From a virus (lineage: Duplodnaviria; Heunggongvirae; Uroviricota; Caudoviricetes): 23,270 bases of DNA. The DNA is taken from the IMG/VR virus record IMGVR_UViG_2531839662_000011. One strand, written 5' to 3'. The translations under genes and the position numbers were made by a program. The notes under the pieces are model-generated. The model worked only from the letters and a program-made list of their open reading frames with translations, did not search any database and was not told where the DNA came from. This document shows, in pieces, positions 276-14,978 of this stretch; the stretch's first letter is position 1; every line of letters begins with the position of its first letter.

Positions 276-279
276 CGTT

Positions 280-828: not shown

Positions 829-975
829 TTAAAAGACCTCCACCGCTCTGATGGTGTACTTCAGGGGCCACAAACAGCGCCGCATCCACAACCCGGCAAT
901 AGCGCGGAACTCCCAGAACCAGCATGTAACAATGATTTTTGCGGTGACTCCGTAGTCATAAAATTCAATATTCAT
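829..975 (-). CDS. small ORF, 48 aa
   Basis: ATG 975-973 with AAGAAGG upstream; hand translation; stop TAA 831-829. Confidence 0.25.
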   Translation of the reverse strand: MNIEFYDYGVTAKIIVTCWFWEFRAIAGLWMRRCLWPLKYTIRAVEVF

Positions 976-1062
976 TTGCAGTTAAACCTTCTTTTGTGAC
1001 GTTCTACGGCGGCTTTCATGGCGTTGTGCACGGTTCTTTTAATAATCCGGCGTCCCGCACTG

Positions 1063-1197
1063 TCATAGAACCGCCACCGGGAACCCCGGATATTTGGGAA
1101 ACTCAACCGCCGCGCTACCGTCATTCATCCTGTATTCGTGGCGTTCTCCGGGAGGCTGGTATATTGCTTCGGTAACACTGAGAAGTTTAAAAGCCAT
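1063..1197 (-). CDS. small ORF, 44 aa
   Basis: ATG 1197-1195 preceded by GGGGAGGG; starts 3 nt after stop of 201-aa gene. Confidence 0.3.
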   Translation of the reverse strand: MAFKLLSVTEAIYQPPGERHEYRMNDGSAAVEFPKYPGFPVAVL

Positions 1198-1199
1198 CG

Positions 1200-1805: not shown

Positions 1806-1922
1806 ATAAACCTGGGCTTTTGCAATAGCGTTAGCGGCTTCTTCCGGGCTTGATGTTCCTCTGGCAAGGCGTAACAGTTTTTGATTTTGGCAATGTATTT
1901 ATCTTTCATGGTCGTCTGAACC

Positions 1923-2105
1923 TCAGCATCCTGAATTCTGAATTACGCAACTTCCGGCACGGCCATCAGGAACGTGGGGAGTTCGTTCTGGCTGCGGTAC
2001 TGAATGAACATCTGCTGTCGATTGAGAACTGGTCGCAAGACGATTAAAACAAACGATTGTCAGATTAATTTCGCGGGCGAACTTTTTTTGCTTAGCGATA
2101 TTCAT
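1923..2105 (-). CDS. hypothetical small protein, 60 aa
   Basis: ATG 2105-2103 immediately downstream of hairpin repeat copy A; weak SD. Confidence 0.3.
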   Translation of the reverse strand: MNIAKQKKFAREINLTIVCFNRLATSSQSTADVHSVPQPERTPHVPDGRAGSCVIQNSGC

Positions 2106-2111
2106 AAATAA

Positions 2112-2185
2112 ACTCTCTCTGATTCAGGCGTAAGCCAGCCCCGGCGGGTTTACGCCATATACCAATAAAATTAAAAACAGACTTA
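2112..2185. repeat. direct repeat copy A (~70 bp) with hairpin GGCGTAA(2127-2133)/TTACGCC(2150-2156) and AT-rich tail
   Basis: Near-identical to 2744-2811: core ATTCAGGCGTAAGCCAGCCC..GGGTTTACGCC then AATAA-ATTAAAAACA. Confidence 0.8.
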
Positions 2186-2731
2186 TTAACTACGACGTTC
2201 AGCTTTCCGGTAATGACGGTCAACAGACTTTACGAACGCCTTCACATCACGGGCAATCGAATCCAGCGGATAATATTCATCCAGCAGTTCCATTCCACTG
2301 AATCGAATCTGAAAAAAATCAGGCTTATCTTTATATGACTCCACCAGGTCAATAAACCGCAACTGACGCGGGAGGGATTCCTGCACACCTGAGATAGTGA
2401 GCAAATCATCTTCAAGGATGTATGCGAGGTCTTCCATATCCTTACAGTCAGACAGCATGGATATTCTTGTCAGTATGTTCCGTGTGGCGATATACAGCGC
2501 TGCTGTGTCATTCGCCATCATGGCGAACAAATCCCCCTGAATATAAGCCCCCTTACTGGCCATAGCATTCCCGGCAATCTGTGCATCAAGTACCACATAC
2601 ATAAAATCGGCAGGTGCTCCCAGATGGCCCAGCAATGATGACGCCCATAACGTTACATTGGTTAACTTCTCAGATGAACGGGTAGCAAAACCTTCAGGAG
2701 TAACAATAAAATCCCAGACTTTATCTTTCAT
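2186..2731 (-). CDS. hypothetical protein, 181 aa, candidate accessory gene bracketed by direct repeats
   Basis: ATG 2731-2729 (track start 2737 is TTG), AAGGGGA upstream; stop TAA 2188-2186; no family recognised. Confidence 0.6.
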   Translation of the reverse strand: MKDKVWDFIVTPEGFATRSSEKLTNVTLWASSLLGHLGAPADFMYVVLDAQIAGNAMASKGAYIQGDLFAMMANDTAALYIATRNILTRISMLSDCKDMEDLAYILEDDLLTISGVQESLPRQLRFIDLVESYKDKPDFFQIRFSGMELLDEYYPLDSIARDVKAFVKSVDRHYRKAERRS

Positions 2732-2743
2732 ATACAAATCCCC

Positions 2744-2811
2744 TTAATTCAGGCGTAAGCCAGCCCGACGGGTTTACGCCTGTTTTAAATAACAATTAAA
2801 AACAAATTAAA
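2744..2811. repeat. direct repeat copy B with hairpin GGCGTAA(2752-2758)/TTACGCC(2774-2780)
   Basis: Fills the gap between stop of 2812-3003 gene and start of the 181-aa gene; matches copy A. Confidence 0.8.
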
Positions 2812-3003
2812 TTAATGCGGTGCTTTCAGTGTTTCGACTTTTACGAAATAAGGCTCGACATTAATTTCAACCACACAACCACATTTAAAATCTCTGGCCG
2901 GTGCAACAGTTTTTACCACCCGACCACCACGCACCGCCTGATGTGCAATGTGCATGAAACGAGTACCAGGCGGATATAACTGATTAAAGCGTTTCGCGTT
3001 CAT
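2812..3003 (-). CDS. hypothetical small protein, 63 aa
   Basis: In-frame ATG at 3003-3001 within track ORF 2812-3129; 20-nt overlap with upstream gene. Confidence 0.4.
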   Translation of the reverse strand: MNAKRFNQLYPPGTRFMHIAHQAVRGGRVVKTVAPARDFKCGCVVEINVEPYFVKVETLKAPH

Positions 3004-3217
3004 GAATCGGCTTCCATCCTTTCTGGTGAGCATTAGCACAGAACTGTGCCCGGTGTTCTGCCCAGATGCGGCGCAGAGTACTACACGGGCTTTGCGCTGC
3101 CTTACGCCACAGCTTTTCAGCCTCGGCATAATCGCCGCGTTGTTCTGCTCTGGACACGCCCAGCGAATACGCCGCGCAACTATTTCCGGCTCTGTACTCT
3201 TTGATATCCTGATGCAT
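2984..3217 (-). CDS. hypothetical small protein, 77 aa
   Basis: In-frame ATG 3217-3215 directly after stop (3221-3219) of upstream 214-aa gene. Confidence 0.45.
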   Translation of the reverse strand: MHQDIKEYRAGNSCAAYSLGVSRAEQRGDYAEAEKLWRKAAQSPCSTLRRIWAEHRAQFCANAHQKGWKPIHERETL

Positions 3218-3218
3218 G

Positions 3219-3863
3219 TTAAACCCCTGCAATATCAAGCGGGATTGCGCGGTATTCATCAGAATCACCGACGCGCTCATACACGCGGATATAGCTTCTG
3301 CTGCCAACCACCTGGACGGCTTCACCAATCAGTTTCATGGCGTTATCCCAGCGTTCCTCCGTAATATCGAGACGACGCAGAGCCAGAACGCGCCCGGTGT
3401 TAATGTTGCCTTCCTTGTCCGTGCTGAATGCCTCGCTGATGATGGCTTTAATTTCAGGGCGTGCACCTTCCGTCCAGTCAGCCAGGCAGTCATCAATCAG
3501 TGCCTTCGCGGTCTGAATGCGTTCATCAAGCGCGATACGGTCCTGCATGGCGCGCTGAATCTTGTAACGCCCGTCAAAGCTGTACAGCGTGATATTCCCT
3601 TTTTTACCGCCTTTCACAGCGCCGTATTTTTTCGCCGACAGGTCAATAAACGCCTGAATATCACCAAAGGCACGTAGTTTCAGTTCACGCAGTGAGGCAG
3701 AGGCAGCAATCACCATCTCCACAAGCTCACCGACCAGCTGCTCACGGTCGCGGTCAATATCTTTGATAAGGCTTTCAGGTGTCATTACGCCACGGGCATC
3801 CACCCAGTAACCTTCAGGTGCTTGAGTTTTCGTGTATTGCTTAACTTTATTTTCAGTCGTCAT
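3219..3863 (-). CDS. conserved Mu-like early protein, 214 aa (possibly DUF3164-like; label from memory)
   Basis: ATG 3863-3861 with GAGGT upstream; protein-like ORF downstream of B; not Gam-like by eye. Confidence 0.6.
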   Translation of the reverse strand: MTTENKVKQYTKTQAPEGYWVDARGVMTPESLIKDIDRDREQLVGELVEMVIAASASLRELKLRAFGDIQAFIDLSAKKYGAVKGGKKGNITLYSFDGRYKIQRAMQDRIALDERIQTAKALIDDCLADWTEGARPEIKAIISEAFSTDKEGNINTGRVLALRRLDITEERWDNAMKLIGEAVQVVGSRSYIRVYERVGDSDEYRAIPLDIAGV

Positions 3864-3892
3864 AATTAAATTACCTCAGTGATATTTACAGA

Positions 3893-4108
3893 TTAATTTG
3901 TGTTATGTGCGCAGGGCGCAGCGTTTTCAGAAAAAATATTCACGCCGTTGTAGTCATTTCTCAGTGCTTCCTTGATAACATCATGCAATCCTGTTGCCAC
4001 CTGAAACTCCCTTTCAGAAGCGCCATCCTTCAAATAACTTCCTGTAATCTGGGTTAAAACCCTGCCTTTTTCATTGGTATAGATAATTACTTCCAACTTA
4101 ACCGCCAT
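3893..4108 (-). CDS. hypothetical small protein, 71 aa
   Basis: ATG 4108-4106 with AAGGAG 6 nt upstream (track start 4129 is TTG). Confidence 0.45.
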   Translation of the reverse strand: MAVKLEVIIYTNEKGRVLTQITGSYLKDGASEREFQVATGLHDVIKEALRNDYNGVNIFSENAAPCAHNTN

Positions 4109-4289
4109 GTTTTTCTCCTTTGAAATCAAACGATTTAAAAATAATTTCGTTCATAAAACAGTGAGTTTTTATGATAATGTCGGAAACCTGCTCTCCCGTG
4201 ACATCAGGCGGCAACTGATACGTCGCGACGGCTTTCTCCGGTTTACCTGGCCTGTCCAGGCTGAAAGTTAATTCAAGCTCCAGTGACAT
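4098..4289 (-). CDS. hypothetical small protein, 63 aa
   Basis: ATG 4289-4287 with GAGGGA upstream. Confidence 0.45.
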   Translation of the reverse strand: MSLELELTFSLDRPGKPEKAVATYQLPPDVTGEQVSDIIIKTHCFMNEIIFKSFDFKGEKHGG

Positions 4290-4299
4290 ATTTCATCCC

Positions 4300-4551
4300 T
4301 CAATGCATTTGTGTTTCTTGAGGAATATACGGACATCCCTGTGCCAGTTGTTTCACGTAGTCATGGTAGATTTGCAGATCAAGCCGTTCATTTCCGTGTT
4401 TCTCCTTCAGAATCGTACAAATAGCGCCAACAGTCCCCAGAGTTCTTGCCGCTTCTTCGAGTGTGGCATTGTCGCCATTTTCCACCCGAATAAGGTTATG
4501 GCACTGGTTATTACCCAGGTCGGTAAATACTATTGTTAATTTCACGCTCAC
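4300..4551 (-). CDS. hypothetical small protein, 83 aa
   Basis: GTG start 4551-4549 with GAGGAA 7 nt upstream. Confidence 0.45.
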   Translation of the reverse strand: MSVKLTIVFTDLGNNQCHNLIRVENGDNATLEEAARTLGTVGAICTILKEKHGNERLDLQIYHDYVKQLAQGCPYIPQETQMH

Positions 4552-4566
4552 TTTTAATTCCTCGTT

Positions 4567-4806
4567 TTATTGCCATACGACGGTACAGCCGTCGATACAG
4601 GACGTTTTAACCACACGACGCAGGCCGCTGAATGTCTGGATGATTTCCGTTACCGGCCATACAGGACCACCCACGGGCGGGCAGGCATAAACCACAGGTA
4701 AACGGTGATGCTGCCCCGTTACACGACCGCCAGTGGTGTGGATGGCCACACGGGCACGGGAACGGACGGCGTTAATGGTCTGCTTGTCCATCGTCTTGCT
4801 CTCCAT
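4567..4806 (-). CDS. hypothetical small protein, 79 aa, translationally coupled to B
   Basis: ATG 4806-4804 overlaps B stop TGA 4808-4806 (ATGA). Confidence 0.5.
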   Translation of the reverse strand: MESKTMDKQTINAVRSRARVAIHTTGGRVTGQHHRLPVVYACPPVGGPVWPVTEIIQTFSGLRRVVKTSCIDGCTVVWQ

Positions 4807-5699
4807 CAGTGAATTAACATTTCTGAATATTTATCAATGGCCTGCACACTGACCGGTGCATCGCTGATATCACAAATCCGGTACACACCGCGCGCCAGCT
4901 TGAACAGACGACGGGCATTACCCAGCGAACGTGTGTAAAGTGCCTCACCAATTTCCGGGTCCGCCGCTTCCGGCATCATGTCTGTGGCAATCTTGTTAAA
5001 ATCTTCCTGCGTCAGCGTATCGCCCAGGTTAAGCGCCAGCGCCACGCGGCTGTATAATTGAGCGAACTCACCACAACGGCCCTTAAGGTTAATCAGAAGG
5101 TGAGGCATACCCGCCAGGACAATCCCGATACCCGCTTTGTCATGCAGACGGCGCAATACCTCCAGTGCACGATAGGGGAGCAGTTCAGCCTCATCCACCA
5201 TCAGCAGACGACCTGACCCACGCAGTTCACGCACACAGGCATCAATCTTCTCGCGAATATCGCCGTGAACCTTTACCCCAAGCTGACGGCACAGTTCATC
5301 GAGTAACTTTCTGGCCGTATAGCCAATATCGGCTTCAATGAGCACTACATCCCGGTTTCTGGCGGCATATTCACTCAGAATCATGCTTTTACCCAGACCC
5401 GCCGCGCCATACAGCACGCAAATATCACACTCCAGATGGGCGTAGGTCAGCACCTCCAGCCCTTTGGCGGCCATGCCGGTGGTGACAAATCGCACTTTAA
5501 TACGGCGGTTGTTTTCCTTTTCCCATTCACGGGTCACAAAGGCAGAAATACGTTCTTCAATATCAGCCATATCGCCCTGATATTTGCCCTGCAAATACTG
5601 GTTGATAACGGCGCTGCTACGACCAATAGCACGGGCAACGTGGGTCTGCGTAAAGCCGCGACGGGCCATTACGTCATTTAATTGCGTAATTAAACTCAT
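4806..5699 (-). CDS. B: MuB-like DNA transposition ATPase (AAA+), 297 aa
   Basis: Walker A LYGAAGLGKS, Walker B LLMVDEAE, N-terminal HTH; immediately downstream of transposase as in Mu. Confidence 0.9.
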   Translation of the reverse strand: MSLITQLNDVMARRGFTQTHVARAIGRSSAVINQYLQGKYQGDMADIEERISAFVTREWEKENNRRIKVRFVTTGMAAKGLEVLTYAHLECDICVLYGAAGLGKSMILSEYAARNRDVVLIEADIGYTARKLLDELCRQLGVKVHGDIREKIDACVRELRGSGRLLMVDEAELLPYRALEVLRRLHDKAGIGIVLAGMPHLLINLKGRCGEFAQLYSRVALALNLGDTLTQEDFNKIATDMMPEAADPEIGEALYTRSLGNARRLFKLARGVYRICDISDAPVSVQAIDKYSEMLIH

Positions 5700-5717
5700 A
5701 ATTAAATACCTTTTAAA

Positions 5718-7532
5718 TTAACGATTATTTGTGCCGTTTTTCTTTAAATTGCGCTCACGGTCAGACACGAATAAATAAAGTTCTTCTTTTTCCTTTTTCT
5801 CCTGACGTTCCAGTCCATATCCCAGATTAAAGTCAGGCTTCTGCGTAATGGCCGGGGTAAGCTCGCGTTTAGCCTCTTCGATTTTCTGCGTGGCCCGTGC
5901 AATGCGGCCCCTGACGCGTTTCTCCAGTTTTTGTTCGATAACTGGTTTAGCGAAGGCATCAACCTTGTTACCGTTCCAGATGGCATCGCAGATATAAGAG
6001 CCATCAGCCCGCCGGACAATGACGCTGTTTGCATCATGAATATCGTAACTGACCCTGACTTCATTCCCGTGCTCTGCGGCCAGCTCATACGAGTAATAAA
6101 TATTGTTGAATAACTGAATTTCCCCGCGAAATGTTTTGCGCGTCACTTCCGGTCTGAACATTTCATGCAGTTCTTCCGGCGACAGGAAATCAATTTCAAC
6201 ATTCTGCTCTTTTATCAGTTTCCGGCGATACGCTGCCGGGCTGTAATATTCGCCATCCTCTTTGCGGGGTAGGCTGCTGTGTGGCCGGTTGTTATAGCGT
6301 CTGACCTCCAGCTCTATGGCGGCCATCAGTTGCTCAAAGGTAGGGATTTCATCCCTCGCCTTAACCTGCCGTTTTGTCAGCTCTTTCCCTTTGTGGGTGG
6401 CCTTAATGGCTGACTGCATAATCCGTTGCTGCATCATTACGGTTTCCTTGTCTGCATCCCTTGCGCAGTACGTCTGGAAACTCAGAGCCACGTCTTTGGG
6501 TATTCCTTTGTTTGCCCGTTCAATCACCCCGCGCCCCTGCGGGTTACCTGGTATCCCCGTGTGATGTTCCACACCCAGCCGGGGCAGAATCCCGGTAATA
6601 TCGGCATCAAGCACCCGGTTTTTTTCACCGCCCCCGTTATCGGAGTAATAAATCAGCGGTATCCCGTGCTGCGCCATGCCGTAACGTAACGCATCAGCAA
6701 CGGCTATCACGTTCTCCGACAGGGACAGTGACCAGCCCACAACAAAGCGTTGCCCCGCATCCATAACCAGCGTCACTTCTGGCCGGAAAATATTGCCGGT
6801 CAGGGGGTTAAACGCGGTCATTTTCATACAGTGACCATCCCCGACCCATACCGCATTAACCGGTAATGATGTCCAGTCGCGCCGCACAAAGGGATTGAGC
6901 GAACGCCAGGCTGAACCGGTGGAGCGGAAACGCTCTTTAACAATCACCGGGACGCTGCTTAACACCCGTCTTACTGCGTGAACTGAAGGCAGTGCCGCCA
7001 GCATTCCCGCATCGTTCGCGTGTTTTTCATGCCACCAGGCTGAAAACTCGCGATACGCATATTCAACGGTCGGGCGCTTCCATGAGCGATAGAACATAAA
7101 GAAATCGCTCAGCCACCAGACCTGCTCCCACGGTGTTCCCTTATGATGATCGGGAGCCAGTAACGCCAGTAACTGATTGGCATCACCGCGCGCCATCAGC
7201 CAGGCGGAATACCATTCCTGTAAACTCCCTGTACTGACGCCAGTCCGTTTACCCTGTCGGGCATTAGCAGTATTACCTGCCACAATAACACGCTCGGGCA
7301 AAGCCTCCTGGCGGATACCATCAACGATGTGTTTTATCGCCGCCGTCCTGGACATTCCTGCGTATTCACGCAGTTTATGCACTTCGGTAGCCAGCAATAT
7401 CCGCGCATCAGCGATGGCCCTTTGCTTGTCGGTCAGTGCCTGGACTTCGCGTAATGCCAGTTCCGGGCATTTGACCATCACCTCCAGTTCATCGCGAACG
7501 GTGACGTTTTTAACTGCCTTCTGCTCAACCAC
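5718..7532 (-). CDS. A: MuA-like DDE transposase, 604-codon ORF lacking the N-terminal domain because of an upstream in-frame TAG
   Basis: Long ORF with Mu transposase-like core (WVGDGHCMKM...DAGQRFVVGW...); track start 7532 is GTG with no SD; same frame as 7590-7760 fragment. Confidence 0.9.
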   Translation of the reverse strand: MVEQKAVKNVTVRDELEVMVKCPELALREVQALTDKQRAIADARILLATEVHKLREYAGMSRTAAIKHIVDGIRQEALPERVIVAGNTANARQGKRTGVSTGSLQEWYSAWLMARGDANQLLALLAPDHHKGTPWEQVWWLSDFFMFYRSWKRPTVEYAYREFSAWWHEKHANDAGMLAALPSVHAVRRVLSSVPVIVKERFRSTGSAWRSLNPFVRRDWTSLPVNAVWVGDGHCMKMTAFNPLTGNIFRPEVTLVMDAGQRFVVGWSLSLSENVIAVADALRYGMAQHGIPLIYYSDNGGGEKNRVLDADITGILPRLGVEHHTGIPGNPQGRGVIERANKGIPKDVALSFQTYCARDADKETVMMQQRIMQSAIKATHKGKELTKRQVKARDEIPTFEQLMAAIELEVRRYNNRPHSSLPRKEDGEYYSPAAYRRKLIKEQNVEIDFLSPEELHEMFRPEVTRKTFRGEIQLFNNIYYSYELAAEHGNEVRVSYDIHDANSVIVRRADGSYICDAIWNGNKVDAFAKPVIEQKLEKRVRGRIARATQKIEEAKRELTPAITQKPDFNLGYGLERQEKKEKEELYLFVSDRERNLKKNGTNNR

Positions 7533-7589
7533 TGCGGGCAGTTGCGTATCTTCCAGGACCTGATGGGTCAGGCGCTTACGTAAAACTTT

Positions 7590-7760
7590 CTACGCTTCAG
7601 CGGGCAGGCAGTCGATGTGATACTCGAATGCTTTTGTGCCTTCACGCTTGCGCTTCCATTCCGGGTGCGTCTCTGTGATCCGATTGAGCGTCCAGCGCAC
7701 CCCCTGAACTGTACCGGGCAAACCAGGAAGACCGGCCAGCTCATTGGCTGGATAAAACAT
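7590..7760 (-). pseudogene. A: MuA N-terminal DNA-binding domain fragment, 56 codons then TAG (7592-7590), in frame with transposase ORF
   Basis: ATG 7760-7758 overlaps ner stop (TAATG); MFYPANELAGLPGLPGTVQGVRW...KAFEYHIDCLPAEA* resembles Mu A N-terminus (ANLPGLPKT...KGGKAIEY...LPVEAK). Confidence 0.7.
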
Positions 7761-7996
7761 TACGCCGCCTTACTGGCATACCGGCTTGGCCAGATCTCCG
7801 CAGGTTCCACACCAATAGCATCGGCTATGATGCGTTCATATTTAGGGCATGAGCGATACAGTGCATTTTTTAAAGAGTCTTTTTTTAGACCAGCGCGTTC
7901 AGAAAGTTCACGCAATGTAAAACCTTTGGTGTGCACAGCGGCAACGATGTACTCGCGGTGCCAGTCTTTGTTCATTACTTCATTTCTAACCATCAT
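7760..7996 (-). CDS. ner: Ner-like DNA-binding regulator, 78 aa
   Basis: ATG 7996-7994 (track ORF extends upstream without support); ...IADAIGVEPAEIWPSRYASK matches Mu Ner C-terminus ...IANALETKPEVIWPSRY. Confidence 0.85.
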   Translation of the reverse strand: MMVRNEVMNKDWHREYIVAAVHTKGFTLRELSERAGLKKDSLKNALYRSCPKYERIIADAIGVEPAEIWPSRYASKAA

Positions 7997-8164
7997 TAGG
8001 TTACCCTTAAAAGTTATCCGTGCGGATAACACCGCCGTGTTATCCCTTCGGATATAAGTATTGATCCACAAATAGAAAATTACAAGCTTTCTTTTCTTAT
8101 TTTGGTGAAAAGAAAGTCTTTTTGTAGAAAGATGTTGTAAATCAATAGATTGCGAGAAAAGAAA
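7997..8164. promoter_or_regulatory. divergent promoter/operator region between ner and repressor with two palindromic operator-like sites
   Basis: GTTATCCG-TG-CGGATAAC at 8013-8030 and TGTTATCCCTTCGGATATAA at ~8037-8056 share the GTTATCC half-site. Confidence 0.5.
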
Positions 8165-8812
8165 ATGAGTAAACAAACCGCCGATGATTTTTCCTTTTCT
8201 CAGAATAGAAAAGAAAGCATTCAGGACAGAATCAAGCAACTGGTTGGCACTAGGAGTCTGCGTAAAGCTACCTCAGACTGGGGGTTGCCGTACTCGACCA
8301 TAAATAACTACTTTGAGAAAGGCACCACTCCCGGCCTAAATGTGGTCGCTACGATAGCAAAATTAGAGAATGTATCACTGGAATGGTTGGTCTACGGTGA
8401 GAGCGAGTGCGATCCAATAATAGAAAAAAAGGTACCTACAGAAGACGTTAACCGCCCAAACACAAGTATTGTCGATGAAATACTAAGGCGAGCTACTCCA
8501 GAAGATAGAGAACGTCTTATTGATATGCTGTGTTGTATTGGCATCAAAGGCGTCTTGGAACGCTTACAACAACCCACCAGGCAAGCTACGCAGGCCGACA
8601 GCGACCTGGACGAACAGGAGAATGCCATCAGAAGCCTAAACATCAGGGAATCGCTTAAAGACGCTATTTGCATGGCATTGGCTGGTAATGAAGAAACTGA
8701 CAAAGAGATTTTGCGACGCATCGAATCTCGTGCACGGACTGGGTCGCCAGGTGGTCAGACCGTTGCCACGCCGGAGCAAGAAACGAAGCCTGTAAGCAAA
8801 AAATCAGCATGA
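8165..8812 (+). CDS. prophage repressor, Xre/CI-type HTH, 215 aa
   Basis: ATG 8165 (track start 8150 is TTG); HTH signature SLRKATSDWGLPYSTINNYFEKG...LEWLVYG; divergent from ner as Mu c is. Confidence 0.7.
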   Translation: MSKQTADDFSFSQNRKESIQDRIKQLVGTRSLRKATSDWGLPYSTINNYFEKGTTPGLNVVATIAKLENVSLEWLVYGESECDPIIEKKVPTEDVNRPNTSIVDEILRRATPEDRERLIDMLCCIGIKGVLERLQQPTRQATQADSDLDEQENAIRSLNIRESLKDAICMALAGNEETDKEILRRIESRARTGSPGGQTVATPEQETKPVSKKSA

Positions 8813-9050
8813 ACGCCTACTGCCTGGTGGGCGCATGCTGCCAACTAACTAGCGACATCCACAACAAGACCAATACAGAAGACGGATAAGAAAGGAACAA
8901 ATCAAGCAAGGTTAAAACGGGTTTTAAAATCTTTTAAAAGGCGATCGCTTTCCTGCACCACCAGATCAAAGTAGTCCAGAATAAAGCGTAAAAAAAGGCA
9001 CTTTTGGTCATTTCTTTCAAAACGATCCAGAATCGGTGAAATCTCTCACA
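8813..9050 (-). other. candidate Mu-like left end (attL region)
   Basis: - strand reads 5'-TGTGAGAGATTTCACCGATTC... from 9050 inward, resembling Mu end TGTATTGATTCAC...; tail-fibre homology of flanking phage stops here. Confidence 0.4.
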
Positions 9051-9399
9051 TCCCGCACCACTCAAGGCTTGCAGGTTCGTCCAGGCTGCTCGGACTCAGT
9101 CCAGAATTGATCACCACCCCACACATCCCCAGTTCACGAAGGGTTTTACCGGGGTATGATTTACAGTCAATCACAATATCCCCGCTGATGAAGCCCTCCT
9201 CCACCGCACCGTCGGAAAAGGGTTCCTGCCCGAATTCGCCGTACAACGATGTCATTGCTGCCATTTCATCCGGCGTGGATGGCAATGCACGCCCGCCCCC
9301 GTCACCAAGCAGAACATGCCGGACGGTCACGGTTTGCCCGTTCTGATATGCTGCTTCAATTTCTGCAGCGCCGGACGTTGTCAGAATCAGTCCATTCAT
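9046..9399 (-). pseudogene. H: tail-fibre gene (P2 gpH / Mu gpS type), N-terminal 117 codons only
   Basis: N-terminus ...LTTSGAAEIEAA...VLLGDGGG...LRELG resembles P2 H ITTAGAAKLAAA...AVGDGGG...MRELG; stop TGA 9048-9046 falls inside Mu-like end. Confidence 0.65.
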
Positions 9400-9986
9400 A
9401 CACCTGCCTCACTCTGCCCGCCTGTGGGCACTGTCTTTGTTGTCACACCGGTACTTCTGATTTTTTCTGTCGCCATCACATAGCCGTAACCAAATCCACG
9501 CCCTGTGCTGTTCCCGTAAACGTGAATACTGAACCAGCTGCGCAGATTTTTGGCACGGAGCACCGCATGCTTCAGATCCTGATGATCATTCATCAGCACC
9601 GGTAAATCTTTCTGCTCCACGTTCAGACGGAAGGTATACGGCTCCCCGGGTGGGGTCTGCTCATACCACTCAACAATCTGCGACCGGAAGGGACTGTCAG
9701 CCAGCGATGCCATCAGCGCCGCTTTAGTCCCTCTGTGGCGGTGGATGTATGCAGCACGTTTTATCGCAGACCGTTTTTCCGCCTCCGTCCAGTGTTCATT
9801 CCAGGTGTCCACCGCCATTTCCCAGGCCAGCCATGGCAGCAATTCAGCAGGACATAAATCGGGATTTTTGACATAGCGGATCAGACATACTGCGATTTCC
9901 GCCAGCATATCACCGGCGGTACTGTCCACCACCCGCTCTGCCCGGCTGGCACTGACCGGCAGTATGCTCCTGATATCGTCATTCAT
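9396..9986 (-). CDS. I: baseplate/tail protein, P2 gpI-like, 196 aa
   Basis: NPDLCPAELLPWLAWEMAVDTWNEHW matches P2 I NPDTCPANLLPWLAWAFSVDRWDEKW; ATG 9986-9984. Confidence 0.85.
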   Translation of the reverse strand: MNDDIRSILPVSASRAERVVDSTAGDMLAEIAVCLIRYVKNPDLCPAELLPWLAWEMAVDTWNEHWTEAEKRSAIKRAAYIHRHRGTKAALMASLADSPFRSQIVEWYEQTPPGEPYTFRLNVEQKDLPVLMNDHQDLKHAVLRAKNLRSWFSIHVYGNSTGRGFGYGYVMATEKIRSTGVTTKTVPTGGQSEAGV

Positions 9987-10893
9987 CAGTTGTCTCCACC
10001 TTATTCAGCGTTACCTTGCGGCACCACGGTGCCTGCCCCATCGCAGGAACGATATCACTGCCCGGAGAGGTCAGATTCACCGTAATCACCCCGGTCTGGT
10101 GAAGGGCACCATCCATGCCAGAACGGGATGCCACCGAGCCAATCAGGTGGACGCTGTCAGTGTATAACTGCAGCGCCTTGCGGGCATTTGCCATAACCAG
10201 TTCACCATCCAGTCCGTAGGGAATATGAATATCCGCCACCACATCGTAGGGAATAATTTCTGCCGTCCGGACACTGACAAAATCCGTCAGGGGACGGGTT
10301 TCATCATCACAGACTGATGCTGCCACCTTATCCAGCAGGGGTTGTGATGCAGTGCCATTTCCGGACCGGGATAACACATAAAGAAAAACACGCCCTTCCT
10401 GTGAATGCGTTTCCGGCCCGTAAGCCTTCACATCCAGCACATCAGGATCAGCACTTTGCGCAAAATAGTGGTACGCATTTTTCGCGCCGGCGGTGCTCAG
10501 CCGTGCCCATGACAACTGGATACGTTCGCGAAAAGCGTCATCATCTTCATACACCGCAGGCGTGGGCGGAATGGTGCTGTCATCTGCCGGGGTAATCACC
10601 AGACGCTGCACCTGAAAATTCGCACCAATCTGATCCAGGTCGTTCCTCCGGGCACTCGCAAGCAATACACCCCGGACAGCATCATTGACCTGCTGGCGCA
10701 TCAGCGCCACGCGAAAAGCCAGCGCCTCTGCCCATTTATACGCCGGATCGGATTCCACCAGGGCCGAAAACAACGTGTCCAGCTCCTGATACTTCGTCAC
10801 TATCTGAGTGACCAGCACAGCAGTGTCCGGCACCTCCACCGCATCCGGTACCGGTATCGCAGACAGATCAATAATTGCCTGAGACGTTGCCAA
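9979..10893 (-). CDS. J: baseplate assembly protein, P2 gpJ-like, 304 aa
   Basis: IIDLSAIPVPDAVE...LVITPADDSTIPPTPAV matches P2 J; TTG start with GAGGAG upstream. Confidence 0.9.
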   Translation of the reverse strand: MATSQAIIDLSAIPVPDAVEVPDTAVLVTQIVTKYQELDTLFSALVESDPAYKWAEALAFRVALMRQQVNDAVRGVLLASARRNDLDQIGANFQVQRLVITPADDSTIPPTPAVYEDDDAFRERIQLSWARLSTAGAKNAYHYFAQSADPDVLDVKAYGPETHSQEGRVFLYVLSRSGNGTASQPLLDKVAASVCDDETRPLTDFVSVRTAEIIPYDVVADIHIPYGLDGELVMANARKALQLYTDSVHLIGSVASRSGMDGALHQTGVITVNLTSPGSDIVPAMGQAPWCRKVTLNKVETTDE

Positions 10894-11224
10894 TTTTTAT
10901 CTCCTCGAGTCGAATCGTATCCTGAGTTTCGTTATTCACCCCGACAAGCGTCAGCCACGCGCTTCCTTCTCCTGTCCACGTCACTTCCACCCGCCGGAGA
11001 GTCAGGCGGGGTTCCCAGCGTTCAAGGGCGGTTACCGTTTCGCGAACAATTCTCACCCGCGTGAAATCATCCTGTGGGTTATCAAGCAGACTGAAAAGTC
11101 TGCTGCCGTATTCCCTGAGCAGGACCCGGCTGCCGGCCGGTGTTGACAAAATATCAGTGACGGACTGGCGCAGATGTTCGTTACCGTGCAGATATCTGCC
11201 GGTGGCTGAATCAATACCAATCAT
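10868..11224 (-). CDS. W: baseplate protein, P2 gpW-like (gp25-like), 118 aa
   Basis: Size, position between V and J, GPW/gp25-like sequence; ATG 11224-11222. Confidence 0.85.
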   Translation of the reverse strand: MIGIDSATGRYLHGNEHLRQSVTDILSTPAGSRVLLREYGSRLFSLLDNPQDDFTRVRIVRETVTALERWEPRLTLRRVEVTWTGEGSAWLTLVGVNNETQDTIRLEEIKIGNVSGNY

Positions 11225-11257
11225 GTTGTTTATTCCGGAAAAAGAACTGAAAGGAGA

Positions 11258-11881
11258 TTACATTTGCTGACCAGGCTGTCCGGTGCTGCCACCACTGTCG
11301 CCCCGGTGATTGTGACCGTTATAGACAATTCTGATTTGACTCATCGTTCCGTGATAATCAGAAACCTCACCACCGACCATCAGATCCGCCTTAACCACCG
11401 CCTCAGCATTCATGGTTGCTTTACCCTGTACGGTCAGGGTATCTGTGATTTCTACCGGACCGTCCAGGGTTCCCCTGCCGGTAATTTTATAGCTGCCGCC
11501 TTCAGCCAGCGTGATGGACAGGGCATTAGCCTGACGGTCGTAACGGATTTCCGTTCCGGTATCAAACAAAATAACATGTTCGTATTCACTGCCCTCAGGG
11601 ACAGGAATGGCGTCAATATTGGCCCCCGGATACACCCGACCGTTACGCAAATCGCCCGCCTCCGATATCACTGTAACGGCATCTCCGGGAGCCGGGTAAT
11701 TACTGACCTGCATGTAGCGCCCGGACTGTACCTGAATCCAGGGCAACGGAGGCGAAAGCACATCCCCGATATCCACCCGAACCATCACCGGGCTACCCGG
11801 GATCACCTCGTCCACCACGCCGCGACGGACCATGTCCGCCACCCTGCGGCGTAACTCTGCCACTTCATCTGCCAGACTCAT
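11258..11881 (-). CDS. V: baseplate spike protein, P2 gpV-like, 207 aa
   Basis: C-terminus YNGHNHRGDSGGSTGQP matches P2 V HTHKHPGDSGGTTGSP; in-frame ATG 11881-11879 (track ORF over-extended). Confidence 0.85.
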   Translation of the reverse strand: MSLADEVAELRRRVADMVRRGVVDEVIPGSPVMVRVDIGDVLSPPLPWIQVQSGRYMQVSNYPAPGDAVTVISEAGDLRNGRVYPGANIDAIPVPEGSEYEHVILFDTGTEIRYDRQANALSITLAEGGSYKITGRGTLDGPVEITDTLTVQGKATMNAEAVVKADLMVGGEVSDYHGTMSQIRIVYNGHNHRGDSGGSTGQPGQQM

Positions 11882-12428
11882 CACCGGTGCCCTCTGTTTT
11901 CCAGATAAGACGATAATCCCGCTCATGTTTCTTGCCGGTTTCCGGAGCTTTCCCCAGCCAGACTTCCTGTAAAGGCGCACCAGCCGGAACCTCGAACGGA
12001 TCTTCTCCGACAGGAATATCCTGTTCAAAAGAAACGCGGAAAACGATGTAGTCATCCAGAAGCCGGTCGAAGGTATCCACCTCAGCATCAATAAAAACAG
12101 CCGGATCAACGTTATCCAGCCCGAACGTGGCCCCCTCAATCCAGTCAGATAAATCCATCGCCAGACAACGGGCAAAAATCTGCGGTTTTGGCACGTTTTC
12201 CGTCTTCCCGGCCCGGTCTGTCACCACAAACAGATCACATTTCAGCGTGACCCGCGTCTGCCCGTCGGCAAACTGAGCCTTGTCCCAGCCCGGTACATCC
12301 ACAAACACGGCAGGCGTCACCAGTTGCGTCACTTTTTCCGGATACTCATCGGCATCTTCCACCCAGGGAATTTGTTTCAGACTGTCAATCACCGCCTGAT
12401 GCCAGGCGCCCATCATCAATGGCTCCAT
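11865..12428 (-). CDS. hypothetical tail-associated protein, 187 aa
   Basis: ATG 12428-12426 overlapping upstream stop; lies between Z-like gene and baseplate V. Confidence 0.5.
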   Translation of the reverse strand: MEPLMMGAWHQAVIDSLKQIPWVEDADEYPEKVTQLVTPAVFVDVPGWDKAQFADGQTRVTLKCDLFVVTDRAGKTENVPKPQIFARCLAMDLSDWIEGATFGLDNVDPAVFIDAEVDTFDRLLDDYIVFRVSFEQDIPVGEDPFEVPAGAPLQEVWLGKAPETGKKHERDYRLIWKTEGTGDESGR

Positions 12429-13006
12429 CACTCCAGCCCCTTAAATACCCGGAATTTCAGTTCATGCTCAAAATTTTTCAGGATCAGTGCTTCCGCATCC
12501 GGAAAAACAAAATCCTCTATACGGTTCAGCATGGCTTCATAAATATCAATTTCCGCTTCACGCACCCTCCGTCGTCCGGATGCCTGTCGGATCAGTATCG
12601 TTTTCCTTTTTGATATACGTCCGTTACGATTTTCCGCTTCGAACTGGTTGATAAAGGCATCATCCGTTGACCAGGTGGTGACAGGCAGGGATTCCCCGGC
12701 AGGTTTAAAACTGATCTCCCGAGCCTTCCTGCGGCTGGAAGCTGGTGCAAAACGCCCCCGCTCATCGCGCAACTGATGGCGTTCGCCGCGTCGTCCCCCA
12801 CTGATGCGTCCGCGCAGATCGCGTACTTTGATGGCGTTCAGACCGAACCATACCTTCGCCTCATCAAACTCATCACCGTTACGACGAATGATAAAATTAT
12901 GCAGAACACGCTTTTTGATCATTTTCTGACTGCGTGGCGCAACCTGTTTTTTAAACTCTGCCAGGGCCTTCATCCGCAGTGCAGACGCGGCTCTTTTCAG
13001 CGCCAC
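12428..13006 (-). CDS. basic tail-completion protein, possibly lambda Z-like, 192 aa
   Basis: Same length as lambda Z, very basic, follows FII; GTG start; N-terminal resemblance from memory only. Confidence 0.45.
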   Translation of the reverse strand: MALKRAASALRMKALAEFKKQVAPRSQKMIKKRVLHNFIIRRNGDEFDEAKVWFGLNAIKVRDLRGRISGGRRGERHQLRDERGRFAPASSRRKAREISFKPAGESLPVTTWSTDDAFINQFEAENRNGRISKRKTILIRQASGRRRVREAEIDIYEAMLNRIEDFVFPDAEALILKNFEHELKFRVFKGLE

Positions 13007-13129
13007 GCCCAGGCTTTACGGATCTGACTTTTTGACCCACCCAGTTTAGCGATAATTTTCAGCACCTCATCTTCATCAATATCGACAACGAGGTTTCGTG
13101 CCAGCCGTCGCTGCCGGGCACTGCTTCGT

Positions 13130-13534
13130 TCATGCTCTCTGACTGCCATAACGTTTACTCGGTCGTTCCGGTGCAGCAGGTGTATTTCTCCCGGGCTCTC
13201 CACGCGCAAGGGTGATGGTAATCACCCCCTGACCCGCAGCGCCTGACTCATCCCAGCCGGGATCGACTACCTGATAGGGTTCGCCGTGGATCATGACCCT
13301 GTCATATTTTTTCAGACCGGCGGCCCATGCGCTCCGGGTAAATAACACGGGCGCAGTATCACGAATTTCGCCGCTGCCAGTGTTCATCCCGGTGTTATCT
13401 GCCGGGGCATCAAAAACGGCACGGATTTTTCTTTCCGTGCCGCCCGGATATATGCTGATTTCCGTCCCCATCGTATCCAGGATGATGTCATCCGCATCAC
13501 TCATGGCCTGATCGAACAGATTATCGAACATCAT
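13130..13534 (-). CDS. FII: head-tail connector protein, lambda gpFII-like
   Basis: MFDNLFDQAMSDADD matches lambda FII MADFDNLFDAAIARADE; ATG 13534 overlaps FI stop. Confidence 0.8.
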   Translation of the reverse strand: MMFDNLFDQAMSDADDIILDTMGTEISIYPGGTERKIRAVFDAPADNTGMNTGSGEIRDTAPVLFTRSAWAAGLKKYDRVMIHGEPYQVVDPGWDESGAAGQGVITITLARGEPGRNTPAAPERPSKRYGSQRA

Positions 13535-13899
13535 CACTCCCGGATTTTTTCTGCCAGACCGTCTGCCAGCAACGCGGGAACTGTGGCTTCATTAACCAGC
13601 ACAACACTGGAGGCCCGGGCAAACATCAACATTTTTCCCGTCACAGCATCACAGGCTGGCATATGCGCCGTTTTCAGCATACGCACCCGGGCGAGTCCCT
13701 GCTCAGAATGCATTCCGTCGCCGGATGCATCGTTGCCCACCTCTTCCTTCCCCGTCTCCTCCCCATCGAATCCAGCGGCCTCCTCCTCCCATTCCGCCAG
13801 ACGCTGCTCAAGATCGGCTTTTGAACCTGAAATATCTGCTTCACGCCCCAGAATCACTGCCAGTTCCTGCAAACGTTCAGTCATCTGCTCTTTTGTCAT
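13534..13899 (-). CDS. FI: DNA-packaging accessory protein, lambda gpFI-like, 121 aa
   Basis: In-frame ATG 13899-13897 with GGGAGAG SD; follows E as in lambda (track ORF over-extended into E). Confidence 0.65.
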   Translation of the reverse strand: MTKEQMTERLQELAVILGREADISGSKADLEQRLAEWEEEAAGFDGEETGKEEVGNDASGDGMHSEQGLARVRMLKTAHMPACDAVTGKMLMFARASSVVLVNEATVPALLADGLAEKIRE

Positions 13900-13949: not shown

Positions 13950-14978
13950 TTATTTCACCTGAACCACCACAAACGCATCCGGATCCGGCAGCACCATCAA
14001 CGGCGCAGACTGCGTCATTGTATATTCGCAACCAGGATCCCCCACTTCCTCCCAGTGTTTCGGATAACGAATCGCAGAGGTGATCCCTTCACTCAGCGCC
14101 TGATTATCCTGGATTGCGCCATAGCAACGGACGCCCTCCGCCTGAGTGTTTCCCAGAATCAGTGTACCTTCCGGCAGATAACGCTGTTCATCCCCGTTTT
14201 CGTCAACATACGTTGTCTTCGCCACCACGACAGCCAGATCGCCGTACCAGCCCTTAAAGGAAACCACGGAACCCAGGTCTTTCAGTGCGGTTTCCAGCTC
14301 AGATTTGGAGCCACGGCGGGTATCCAGTTTTTCACGGAACAGTTTAAAACCGTTCAGCATACGCCAGACCGTGCCGTCCATAATCGCGATATTGATGGTA
14401 CCGGAAGCAAAATCGCAGTACGCATCAAGATCATGCGTCGGATCAAAGGTGTCAGCATTCTGCTTTGACCATTCGCGTCCGCCAGCCTGCGTAATGTTAT
14501 TGGCGGCAGAACGCCCAAAATCCACTTCCACCGTCTCAAACTGCTCGCCGCTCATAGTGTATTTACCCTGCAGAACAGCACTGACTGCCTGCATTTCTTC
14601 CACCTGCACAATCGCCTGCTCTTCCTGTTTCAGGTTGTCCGTCAGAATACGCAGACGGCGGTAAGCCGGGTCATTAAGGCGGGCCGGATCTTCCCCCGGA
14701 AGACGTTCTACAGCCTGCTGATAATCAAAGCGGTGTTTTGGTTTTACATAACCGGGACGTAACACGCGGGTTTCACCACCACGGCTGCGCAGCACTTTGC
14801 CTGACACCACCGGAGACACATACGCCGCAACCGGTGTTTTGCCGGTAATTTTATCCAGCATGACTTCCTGAGTATGGAAAGTGATCGTGCGACGAAAGAA
14901 CAGCTCAAGAAACAGCGCACGAAATTTCACTTTCTGCTCGGTGTACCCGAGTAACTGACGCGTGGTAAATAACCCCAT
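13950..14978 (-). CDS. E: major capsid protein, lambda gpE-like, 342 aa
   Basis: Collinear similarity to lambda E (e.g. RSRGGETRVLRPGYVKPKH, GNTQAEGVRCYGAIQD, MTQSAPLMVLPDPDAFVVVQ). Confidence 0.95.
   Translation of the reverse strand: MGLFTTRQLLGYTEQKVKFRALFLELFFRRTITFHTQEVMLDKITGKTPVAAYVSPVVSGKVLRSRGGETRVLRPGYVKPKHRFDYQQAVERLPGEDPARLNDPAYRRLRILTDNLKQEEQAIVQVEEMQAVSAVLQGKYTMSGEQFETVEVDFGRSAANNITQAGGREWSKQNADTFDPTHDLDAYCDFASGTINIAIMDGTVWRMLNGFKLFREKLDTRRGSKSELETALKDLGSVVSFKGWYGDLAVVVAKTTYVDENGDEQRYLPEGTLILGNTQAEGVRCYGAIQDNQALSEGITSAIRYPKHWEEVGDPGCEYTMTQSAPLMVLPDPDAFVVVQVK

What the first reader, a model, noticed from the sequence alone, without database searches (positions are those of the whole stretch)
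9046..13006. Mosaic late region: lambda-type head module joined directly to a P2-type baseplate module with no sheath, tube or tape-measure genes between
Seen: after FII and a Z-like gene come a 187-aa unknown gene and then P2-like V, W, J, I and H. P2 places baseplate and fibre genes before sheath and tube, so the missing tail genes are expected downstream of H, now displaced by the Mu-like insertion. The 187-aa gene at the module joint has no recognised family and may be the adaptor between a lambda-type connector and a contractile tail.
Basis: partly seen in the sequence, partly recalled or inferred. Interest (0 to 1): 0.45.

Follow-up and report, generated by a model that had tools for sequence, protein, structure and literature searches.

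The report
Lambda-head, P2-tail prophage split by Mu
This is an ordinary, already documented kind of hybrid prophage (lambda-type head, P2/pyocin-type contractile tail) whose "mystery" 187-aa gene is the tail terminator (collar) ring, and whose missing sheath, tube and tape-measure genes sit intact on the far side of a 37-kb Mu-like prophage inserted in the tail-fibre gene.

Summary
On the minus strand the order is E, FI, FII, a Z-family gene, a 187-aa gene, then P2-type V, W, J, I and the first 92 codons of H.

- **Source.** The window is at least 99.9% identical to E. coli UMNF18.
- **The 187-aa protein.** It is not an orphan. A 130-sequence family profile matches the pyocin R2 collar PA0615 (PDB 6U5F) full length at E 7.5e-34. 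Its predicted fold hits that collar first, then the terminators of Mu, T5 and lambda (gpU). It is the tail terminator, in the gene position that gpU holds in lambda, and the functional counterpart of P2 gpR without belonging to the gpR or gpS families.
- **The Z-like gene.** It falls in the same PHROG family as lambda gpZ. Here a 1-nt deletion at 13007 splits it.
- **Precedent.** The order FII–Z–Collar–V–(PAAR)–W–J–I is already published for Wolbachia phage WO.

This is a member of a known kind and of low interest.

The parts
13950..14978 (-). Major capsid protein, lambda gpE type (last large gene of the lambda-type head module, which runs from Nu1 at 21245 down to here)
   Evidence: Pfam Phage_cap_E E 7.8e-66; 59% identical to lambda E over 341 aa
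13534..13899 (-). DNA-packaging protein FI
   Evidence: Pfam Packaging_FI 1.5e-13, phrog_92 1.4e-32
13130..13537 (-). FII-type head-tail joining (head closure) protein. It is the head-side partner of the tail terminator.
   Evidence: Pfam Phage_attach 6.3e-13, phrog_82 'head closure Hc1' 8.8e-30. 33% identical to lambda FII and 32-36% to the FII-position proteins of phages yong2 and Chris1.
12997..13149 (-). N-terminal 50 codons of the gpZ-family tail completion gene, cut off from the rest by a frameshift
   Evidence: Matches residues 1-47 of the intact 240-aa protein of ETEC1738. PGAP annotates it as a separate 50-aa hypothetical protein in UMNF18.
13007..13007 (.). Site of a 1-nt deletion (C4 to C3 on the + strand) that frameshifts the gpZ-family gene
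   Evidence: Pairwise alignment with ETEC1738. It is the only indel in a coding region between 9124 and 21245.
12428..13006 (-). C-terminal 192 codons of the gpZ-family tail completion protein (240 aa when intact)
   Evidence: phrog_27 6.3e-23. The full-length relative scores 1.7e-28 over profile positions 4-194, and lambda gpZ is in the same PHROG at 3.2e-69. No Pfam match, no PDB sequence match and no fold match.
11865..12428 (-).
   Evidence: PDB 6U5F collar PA0615: E 0.23 with the single sequence, 1.1e-3 with an 8-sequence profile, 7.5e-34 full length with a 130-sequence profile. Still 9e-17 after removing every member that BLAST-hits PA0615. Foldseek top hits are 6u5j and 6u5f (collar), then the terminators of Mu, T5 and lambda (gpU).
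11258..11881 (-). Baseplate spike, P2 gpV type
   Evidence: phrog_9992 1.3e-23. 26% identical to P2 V and 53-55% to the V proteins of yong2 and Chris1. Overlaps the terminator gene by 17 nt.
10868..11224 (-). Baseplate wedge, gpW/gp25 type
   Evidence: Pfam GPW_gp25 1.6e-15; 38% identical to P2 W
9979..10893 (-). Baseplate wedge, gpJ type
   Evidence: Pfam Baseplate_J 3.3e-21; 40% identical to P2 J
9396..9986 (-). Baseplate protein, gpI type
   Evidence: Pfam Tail_P2_I 8.5e-36; 34% identical to P2 I
9124..9399 (-). First 92 codons of tail-fibre gene H (449 codons when intact)
   Evidence: Nucleotides 1-276 of intact H from ETEC1738 match here at 100%. Nucleotides 273-1350 match 37 kb away in UMNF18. 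phrog_4618 'tail collar fiber' 5.9e-20.
1..9123 (-). Left (c-end) part of a Mu-like transposable prophage inserted in H. Contains repressor 8150-8812 (+), ner-like 7760-7996 (-), transposase A 5718-7760 (-) and B ATPase 4806-5699 (-).
   Evidence: PGAP annotation of UMNF18. The element starts TG and ends CA, with repeated TTCTGGAC motifs at both ends. All other E. coli matches stop at window 9124.

Best explanation
The region is the neck-plus-baseplate part of the single late operon of a lambdoid temperate myovirus prophage of E. coli. In intact relatives it is integrated next to potB.

**Parts.**
- The head is lambda-type: Nu1, A, W, B, C, D, E, FI, FII.
- The tail is a P2/R-pyocin-type contractile tail, laid out in P2 order: V W J I H G, then sheath, tube, E/E', tape measure, U, X, D.
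- Between head and tail lies a three-gene neck cassette in lambda's own order, FII – Z – terminator. Lambda's gpU is replaced by a contractile-tail terminator of the pyocin R2 collar (PA0615) / Mu gp37 kind. This is the 187-aa protein.

**Inferred mechanism.**
1. The tail is built on the V/W/J/I/D baseplate.
2. Tube and sheath grow along the tape measure.
3. A hexamer of the 187-aa terminator caps tube and sheath, with help from the gpZ-family completion protein.
4. That ring is the surface onto which the FII-closed lambda-type head docks, as FII docks on gpU in lambda.

**State of this copy.** The prophage is dead. A 37-kb Mu-like prophage has transposed into codon 92-93 of H, pushing the remaining tail genes 37 kb away. 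The Z-family gene carries a frameshift. Similarity to the intact prophage stops upstream of the lysis genes.
For: **Shown**
- Gene identities and order.
- Intact relative with H, G, sheath, tube, E, E', tape measure, U, X and D, plus Q, RusA and replication P upstream.
- The same downstream genes, as identical protein accessions, beyond the Mu-like element in UMNF18.
- Insertion junctions.
- 73 of 5,426 complete E. coli genomes carry at least 80% of the region. Only one carries the Mu junction.
- Terminator identity by sequence profile and by fold.
- Z-family membership by PHROG.
- The FII–Z–terminator–V block is conserved at 32-55% in Hafnia phage yong2 and Citrobacter phage Chris1. Their terminase and portal are only about 24% identical to the window's.
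- Genes overlap or lie within about 35 nt of each other from FII to H. Promoter-like sites are not above the shuffle expectation, which fits one read-through late transcript.

**Inferred**
- Hexameric capping of tube and sheath, from PA0615 in the pyocin R2 structures and from P2 gpR.
- FII docking on the terminator, from established lambda biology (FII–gpU).
Against: - The AlphaFold model of the 187-aa protein is only moderate (mean pLDDT 62), so the fold match is supporting evidence rather than decisive on its own.
- No physical evidence here shows that FII contacts this terminator.
- The Z-like protein has no Pfam hit. hhalign against the single lambda gpZ sequence found nothing. No solved or named predicted structure matches its model. 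Its assignment therefore rests on PHROG profile membership and gene position.
- No intact relative has been shown to produce particles.
Confidence: 0.9

Rival explanations
1. The 187-aa protein is a new, family-less adaptor evolved specifically to bridge a lambda-type connector and a contractile tail.
For: No Pfam hit. PHROG 1072 is labelled 'unknown function'. PGAP calls it hypothetical.
Against: - It shows full-length profile homology to the solved pyocin R2 collar PA0615, at E 7.5e-34 and still 9e-17 in a leave-out test.
- Its fold hits tail terminators from many phages.
- R-pyocins are known (my own knowledge) to have no head, so the family is not specific to head joining.
- The WO homologue is already described as Collar.
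Confidence: 0.03
2. The Z-like and 187-aa genes are diverged members of the P2 gpS and gpR sequence families, which would make the whole tail including the neck straightforwardly P2-derived.
For: - They sit just upstream of V, as R and S do in P2.
- P2 gpR is a tail terminator (phrog_65) and gpS a tail completion protein (phrog_26), so the functions correspond.
Against: - hhalign of the 130-sequence family against P2 gpR and gpS gives probabilities below 1%.
- There are no Pfam gpR or gpS hits.
- The PHROGs differ: 1072 versus 65, and 27 versus 26.
- The gene order is completion then terminator, as in lambda (Z, U), and not terminator then completion as in P2 (R, S).
Confidence: 0.05
3. The head-to-baseplate adjacency results from a deletion or assembly rearrangement that removed sheath, tube and tape-measure genes from between them.
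For: This genome is visibly rearranged: a Mu insertion in H, and loss of similarity to the intact prophage at 23114.
Against: - The same adjacency is found in 73 complete E. coli genomes, in P2 itself and in phage WO.
- Genes overlap across the junction: FII/Z by 20 nt, Z/terminator by 1 nt, terminator/V by 17 nt.
- The sheath, tube and tape-measure genes are present downstream.
Confidence: 0.01
4. The tail genes function as a domesticated headless tailocin (R-pyocin-like) rather than as part of a phage.
For: The terminator belongs to the pyocin collar family, and the tail gene order matches the P2/R-pyocin type.
Against: - A complete lambda-type head and packaging set is co-linear with the tail genes in relatives, together with FII and Z, which serve head joining, and with Q, replication and lysis genes.
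- In this genome the fibre gene H is split and Z is frameshifted, so even a tailocin would lack fibres.
Confidence: 0.04

Closest known systems
[quoted passage not shown]
   Same: - The gene order is the same: lambda-family A, W, portal, C, D, E, then FII-position gene, Z, Collar, V, W, J, I.
- The window proteins are 30-44% identical to WO Collar, V, W, J and I.
- Both Z proteins fall in phrog_27 and both collars in phrog_1072.
- The WO Collar is already linked in print to the R-type bacteriocin collar and to Mu gp37.
   Different: - There is no PAAR gene between V and W here.
- The host is E. coli, with lambdoid Q/RusA/P early genes rather than the WO serine recombinase and eukaryotic association module.
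- In the WOVitA1 record no fibre or sheath genes follow I, and the WO paper treats tail and tail-fibre genes as separate modules. Here H, G, sheath and tube follow I directly, as in P2.
Pseudomonas aeruginosa R2 pyocin collar PA0615 (PDB 6U5F, 6U5J)
   Same: - Full-length sequence-profile homology.
- Best fold match.
- Similar length: 171 versus 187 aa.
   Different: - Direct pairwise identity is about 20%.
- A pyocin has no head, so PA0615 has no head-closure partner. Here the protein follows FII and Z and presumably receives a head.
Bacteriophage P2 late genes (R, S, V, W, J, I, H, G, FI, FII, E, E', T, U, D)
   Same: - The tail-gene order is the same, with completion and terminator genes immediately before V and with sheath, tube and tape measure after the fibre genes.
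- Identity is 22-49% for V, W, J, I, H, G, sheath, tube, U, X and D.
   Different: - The head genes are lambda-type rather than P2 Q/P/O/N/M/L.
- The neck proteins come from other families: phrog_27 and phrog_1072 instead of phrog_26 (gpS) and phrog_65 (gpR).
- X lies between U and D here, not next to the lysis genes.
- The genes are packed as one operon behind a Q antiterminator, instead of four Ogr-activated operons.
Bacteriophage lambda FII – Z – U neck genes
   Same: - The order of head closure, tail completion and tail terminator directly after FI is the same.
- FII is 33% identical to lambda FII.
- Z is in the same PHROG as lambda gpZ.
- The terminator shares the gpU fold class.
   Different: The terminator belongs to the larger contractile-tail type (187 versus 131 aa). 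hhalign against gpU gives only a weak N-terminal signal at 19% probability. It is followed by a spike gene rather than a tube gene.
Hafnia phage yong2 and Citrobacter phage Chris1 (isolated temperate phages)
   Same: Among isolated phages these have the closest homologues of the terminator (48-51%), Z (42-43%), V (53-55%) and FII (32-36%), in the same order FII–Z–terminator–V.
   Different: - After V come sheath, tube, tape measure, U, X and D, and only then W, J, I, H and G.
- The head has a Clp-protease-annotated gene of about 640-690 aa where the window has C, D and E.
- Terminase and portal are only about 24% identical to the window's.

Membership tests
Tail terminator, pyocin R2 collar PA0615 type (phrog_1072) | Full-length sequence homology to PA0615 | tested here: met
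   Profile of 130 family members, with the window protein as first row, against PDB: 6u5f_A at E 7.5e-34 over 1-170 versus 1-164 of 171. Still 9.2e-17 after removing all 113 members with a BLASTP hit to PA0615. The 8-sequence profile gives 1.1e-3 and is co-linear.
Tail terminator, pyocin R2 collar PA0615 type (phrog_1072) | Tail-terminator fold | tested here: met
   Foldseek of the AF2 model against PDB gives 6u5j_A at 1e-6 (TM 0.55/0.62), then the Mu terminator (9khy, 9lj8), T5 p142, lambda gpU and T4 gp15. The model is only moderate, with pLDDT 62.
Tail terminator, pyocin R2 collar PA0615 type (phrog_1072) | Forms a hexameric ring capping the tube and the last sheath layer | not testable with these tools
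   Needs cryo-EM or biochemistry of particles from an intact relative.
P2 gpR tail terminator family (phrog_65, Pfam P2_Phage_GpR) | Sequence-profile similarity to P2 gpR | tested here: not met
   hhalign of A2 against P2 gpR gives probability 0.7%. No Pfam hit. P2 gpR is in phrog_65 and the window protein in phrog_1072.
P2 gpS tail completion family (phrog_26, Pfam Phage_tail_S) | Sequence-profile similarity to P2 gpS, for either the 187-aa or the Z-like protein | tested here: not met
   hhalign of A2 against gpS gives probability 0.7%. The Z-like protein falls in phrog_27, not phrog_26. BLASTP finds no hits.
Lambda gpZ tail completion family | Sequence-profile membership together with lambda gpZ | tested here: inconclusive
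   Met at PHROG level: phrog_27 scores 6e-23 for the window copy and 1.7e-28 for the full-length relative, and lambda gpZ scores 3e-69. Not met with Pfam Minor_tail_Z, where 1 of 24 homologues reaches E 0.021. Not met with hhalign against the single gpZ sequence. The gene position after FII matches lambda.
Lambda-type head module | Nu1, A, W, B, C, D, E, FI, FII homologues in lambda order | tested here: met
   All nine give BLASTP hits to their lambda counterparts at 33-66% identity and are co-linear.
P2-type baseplate and tail module | V, W, J, I, H, G followed by sheath, tube, E/E', T, U, D, homologous to P2 and in P2 order | tested here: met
   BLASTP identity to P2 is 22-49% for V, W, J, I, H, G, FI, FII, U, X and D. 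The order is shown. Only V, W, J, I and the 5' end of H lie inside the window.
Mu-like transposable prophage (the insertion) | repressor/ner/A/B gene order, TG...CA termini and a 5-bp target duplication | tested here: inconclusive
   The gene order and the Mu transposase C-terminal domain annotation are present. The termini are TG...CA with repeated end motifs. The exact duplication is only 4 bp (GATG); a 5-bp duplication would require one mismatch.

The most novel reading that the evidence does not exclude
The FII – gpZ-family – PA0615-type terminator trio may be a portable neck cassette that travels with contractile tails and sets which heads can dock on them. It is seen here behind a lambda-type head, in yong2 and Chris1 behind a head with only about 24%-identical terminase and portal, and in WO behind a lambda-family head. 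If FII-type head-closure proteins bind PA0615-type terminators as they bind gpU, this would give a simple and testable rule for head-tail compatibility. It would also give a handle for putting heads on tailocins.
Probability: 0.3. Interest if true: 0.35.

Novelty: new member of a known kind. Interest (0 to 1): 0.13.

Why it matters
The practical value is mainly in annotation.

- A gene labelled 'hypothetical' by PGAP and 'unknown function' in PHROGs (phrog_1072) can be named a tail terminator of the pyocin-collar type. The family has 358 representative clusters at E ≤ 0.001.
- The neighbouring gene can be named a gpZ-family tail completion protein.
- The locus shows that lambda-type heads and P2/pyocin-type contractile tails are joined through the ordinary lambda-style trio of head closure, completion and terminator. 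No special adaptor is needed.
- It is a clear example of one prophage disabling another by transposing into its tail-fibre gene.

None of this changes current understanding. The same architecture is already published for phage WO.

Tried and rejected
- **Megablast of 9046-13540 against the phage collection.** No match, so no sequenced isolated phage is close at the DNA level.
- **Single-sequence and shallow-profile PDB searches.** These gave only borderline collar hits (E 0.23 and 1.1e-3). The deep profile from the representative-library search was needed.
- **Z-like protein.**
  - PDB profile search returned only spurious designed-repeat and ribosomal hits.
  - Foldseek against PDB found nothing below E 0.08.
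  - Foldseek against BFVD found only unnamed 188-aa viral proteins, best E 2.4e-4.
  - hhalign against the single lambda gpZ sequence found nothing.
  - Only the PHROG profile links it to gpZ.
- **hhalign of the terminator family against P2 gpR, P2 gpS and lambda gpU.** No signal for gpR or gpS; a weak signal for gpU at 19% probability.
- **Literature search for 'lambda-like head' plus 'P2-like tail'.** No papers. A search on UMNF18 prophages found nothing about this element.
- **Rfam scan of the whole window.** No RNA family. No tRNAs.
- **Programmed frameshift in the Z-like gene.** Considered and rejected, because the gene is a single 240-codon ORF in relatives and its cluster has 1,223 member sequences.
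- **PGAP's 'frameshifted' portal flag in UMNF18 as a second lesion.** Considered and rejected, because the window's portal region is identical to ETEC1738, where the gene is annotated intact.

Full report
**Source and layout**

The window is an E. coli chromosomal segment.
- Positions 9046-14978 are 100% identical to E. coli UMNF18, a porcine ETEC strain (NZ_AGTD01000001.1).
- Positions 1-10280, which include the Mu-like part (1-9123), are 99.92% identical to the same record, with 5 substitutions and 3 gap positions. The window therefore comes from that strain or a near-identical genome or assembly.
- All genes of the finding are on the minus strand and are transcribed from high to low coordinates.

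**Checking the observation**

Pfam and PHROG scans give the following assignments.

| Gene | Coordinates |
|---|---|
| Major capsid E | 13950-14978 |
| FI | 13534-13899 |
| FII head-tail joining / head closure | 13130-13537 |
| phrog_27 'tail completion or Neck1' | 12428-13006 |
| phrog_1072 'unknown function' (no Pfam) | 11865-12431 |
| V | 11258-11881 |
| W/gp25 | 10868-11224 |
| J | 9979-10893 |
| I | 9396-9986 |
| Tail-collar fibre N-terminus | 9046-9399 |

BLASTP against lambda and P2 proteins taken from their GenBank records shows:
- Nu1, A, W, B, C, D and E are 49-66% identical to lambda. FI is 40% and FII 33%.
- V, W, J and I are 26-40% identical to P2.

**Where the missing tail genes are**

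- 73 of 5,426 complete E. coli genomes hold at least 80% of 9046-14978. In 72 of them the match starts at window 9124.
- In one of these, ETEC1738, the prophage is uninterrupted. Its gene order is:
  1. Q antiterminator, tRNAs, holins and endolysin.
  2. Nu1 to FII.
  3. A 240-aa and a 183-aa 'hypothetical' protein.
  4. V, W, J, I, H (449 aa) and a fibre assembly protein.
  5. Sheath, tube, E, E', a 552-aa tape-measure-position protein, U, X and D.
  6. A second fibre gene pair, then potB.
- In UMNF18 itself H is split:
  - Nucleotides 1-276 of H lie at window 9399-9124.
  - Nucleotides 273-1350 lie 37,086 bp further on.
  - That remainder of H is followed by the same fibre-assembly, sheath, tube, E, E', tape-measure-position, U, X and D proteins, with identical protein accessions.
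- The intervening DNA is a complete Mu-like prophage. It carries repressor, ner, transposase, B ATPase, Mor, head genes and its own sheath, tape measure and baseplate. Its termini are TG...CA with repeated TTCTGGAC motifs at both ends.

P2 itself has the order R, S, V, W, J, I, H, G and then FI, FII, E, T, U, D. Baseplate genes directly after the neck genes is thus the normal P2 layout.

**The 187-aa protein**

*Sequence evidence*
- A single-sequence search of PDB sequences already put 'Collar PA0615' (pyocin R2, 6U5F/6U5J) first, at E 0.23.
- An 8-sequence profile of close homologues raised this to 1.1e-3.
- An exhaustive HMMER search of 1.84 billion representative proteins found 358 family members at E ≤ 1e-3.
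- A profile of 130 of them, with the window protein as first row, matches PA0615 over its full length at E 7.5e-34.
- This is not circular. No member is more than 35% identical to PA0615. After removing all 113 members with any BLASTP hit to PA0615, the remaining 17 sequences, which include the window protein's closest homologues, still give E 9e-17 over the full length.

*Structural evidence*
- An AlphaFold2 model of modest quality (pLDDT 62) was searched against PDB.
- It hits the pyocin collar first (E 1e-6). The next hits are the phage Mu terminator (9KHY, 9LJ8), T5 p142, lambda gpU, the GTA terminator and T4 gp15.
- A few family members also hit Pfam Phage_Mu_Gp37 and Phage_tail_terminator.

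*Relation to P2*
- The protein is a tail terminator.
- It is not a member of the P2 gpR or gpS sequence families. hhalign gives probabilities below 1%, and the PHROGs differ.
- A 2026 preprint on the P2 virion structure identifies gpR as the P2 tail terminator and compares it with PA0615. The 187-aa protein is therefore the functional counterpart of gpR.

**The Z-like protein**

- Lambda gpZ, the WO 'minor tail protein Z', the yong2 protein in the same position and the full-length E. coli protein all fall in phrog_27.
- The full-length form is 240 aa, and homologues are 218-240 aa.
- In the window a 1-nt deletion in a C4 run at 13007 splits it into a 50-codon and a 192-codon ORF.
- With the N-terminus restored, the PHROG match extends from profile positions 38-194 to 4-194.
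- Beyond the PHROG there is no support. There is no Pfam hit, no PDB sequence or fold match, and no hhalign signal to the single gpZ sequence.
- I therefore call it gpZ-family with moderate confidence.

**Where the module joint is**

- The order FII – Z – terminator is lambda's own order, FII – Z – U. The terminator has been exchanged for the contractile-tail type.
- In Hafnia phage yong2 and Citrobacter phage Chris1 the block FII – Z – terminator – V is conserved at 32-55% identity. Their terminase and portal are only about 24% identical to the window's, and their remaining tail genes are in a different order.
- The neck cassette therefore travels with the tail. The evolutionary joint lies around FI/FII, not at the 187-aa gene.
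- Genes overlap or nearly abut: Z/terminator as TGATG, terminator/V by 17 nt, W/J by 26 nt. Promoter-like sites are not enriched.
- Together with the Q gene upstream in the intact relative, this points to a single lambda-style late transcript rather than P2's Ogr-activated operons. This step is inferred.

**Comparison with what is known**

- Wolbachia phage WO has a lambda-family terminase, W, portal, C, D and E, followed by an FII-position gene, Z, a phrog_1072 protein, V, PAAR, W, J and I.
[quoted passage not shown] They already link the Collar to the R-type bacteriocin collar and to Mu gp37 by HHpred.
- The window's terminator is 30% identical to the WO Collar.
- The E. coli prophage is thus a further member of a documented architecture.

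**Functional state here**

- H is interrupted after codon 92.
- The Z-family gene is frameshifted.
- Similarity to the intact prophage ends at window 23114, upstream of where the lysis, Q and replication genes should be.
- In UMNF18 the neighbouring genes there are a DUF1441 gene and a chromosomal LPS phosphatase gene.
- This copy cannot make virions.

**Verdict**

It is right about the displaced tail genes and about the head and tail types. It is wrong that the 187-aa protein lacks a family or is a special adaptor.
- This is a new member of a known kind and of low interest.

Noticed in passing
window 13007 (between 12997-13149 and 12428-13006, minus strand): A 1-nt deletion in a C4 run, relative to ETEC1738, frameshifts the 240-codon gpZ-family gene. 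The other 71 uninterrupted matches are likewise at least one base longer over this stretch. It is shared with the RefSeq UMNF18 record. I could not tell whether it is a real mutation or a homopolymer sequencing error.
   Followed up: partly
window 7590-7592 (minus strand), inside the Mu-like transposase gene 5718-7760: The window has an in-frame TAG at codon 57 of the Mu-like transposase, where the RefSeq UMNF18 record has CAG. Over window 1-10280 the two differ by 5 substitutions and 3 gap positions, while 9046-14978 is identical. The window is therefore not exactly the RefSeq sequence, and its Mu-like element may be unable to transpose.
   Followed up: partly
window 9121-9128, and L002 38239-38247: The Mu-like element is flanked by an exact duplication of only 4 bp (GATG). 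The 5-bp duplication expected for Mu would require one mismatch.
   Followed up: partly
window 23114-23270: Similarity to the intact prophage of ETEC1738 stops abruptly at 23114, inside or next to the gene upstream of the small late genes. In UMNF18 the next genes are a DUF1441 gene and an LPS core heptose(II)-phosphate phosphatase gene, rather than endolysin, holins, tRNAs and Q. This suggests recombination or inversion between prophages.
   Followed up: partly
window 15547-16055 (minus-strand gene C, 15422-17038): The C / scaffold-protease gene contains 3.7 tandem copies of a 138-nt unit (about 46 aa, '...EAKGREQLAQ.LA.QPGMTV.QAK.LLAAAP...'). This makes it 538 aa against 439 aa for lambda C.
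   Followed up: no
window 13926-13946 (minus strand): A strong GC-rich hairpin followed by a T-run lies 4 nt after the stop codon of capsid gene E. It is a terminator-like structure inside the late operon and might raise capsid mRNA abundance or stability.
   Followed up: no
L001 8434-10409 and L002 45839-47814 (outside the window): After gene D the prophage carries a second fibre gene pair (prophage tail fiber N-terminal domain protein plus DUF4376 protein) in addition to H and G. The Mu-like prophage carries a similar pair.
   Followed up: no
window 11865-12428; PHROG phrog_1072: There is an annotation gap. phrog_1072 is labelled 'unknown function' and PGAP calls the gene hypothetical, although a solved homologue (PA0615, PDB 6U5F) exists. 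The family has 358 representative clusters at E ≤ 0.001.
   Followed up: yes
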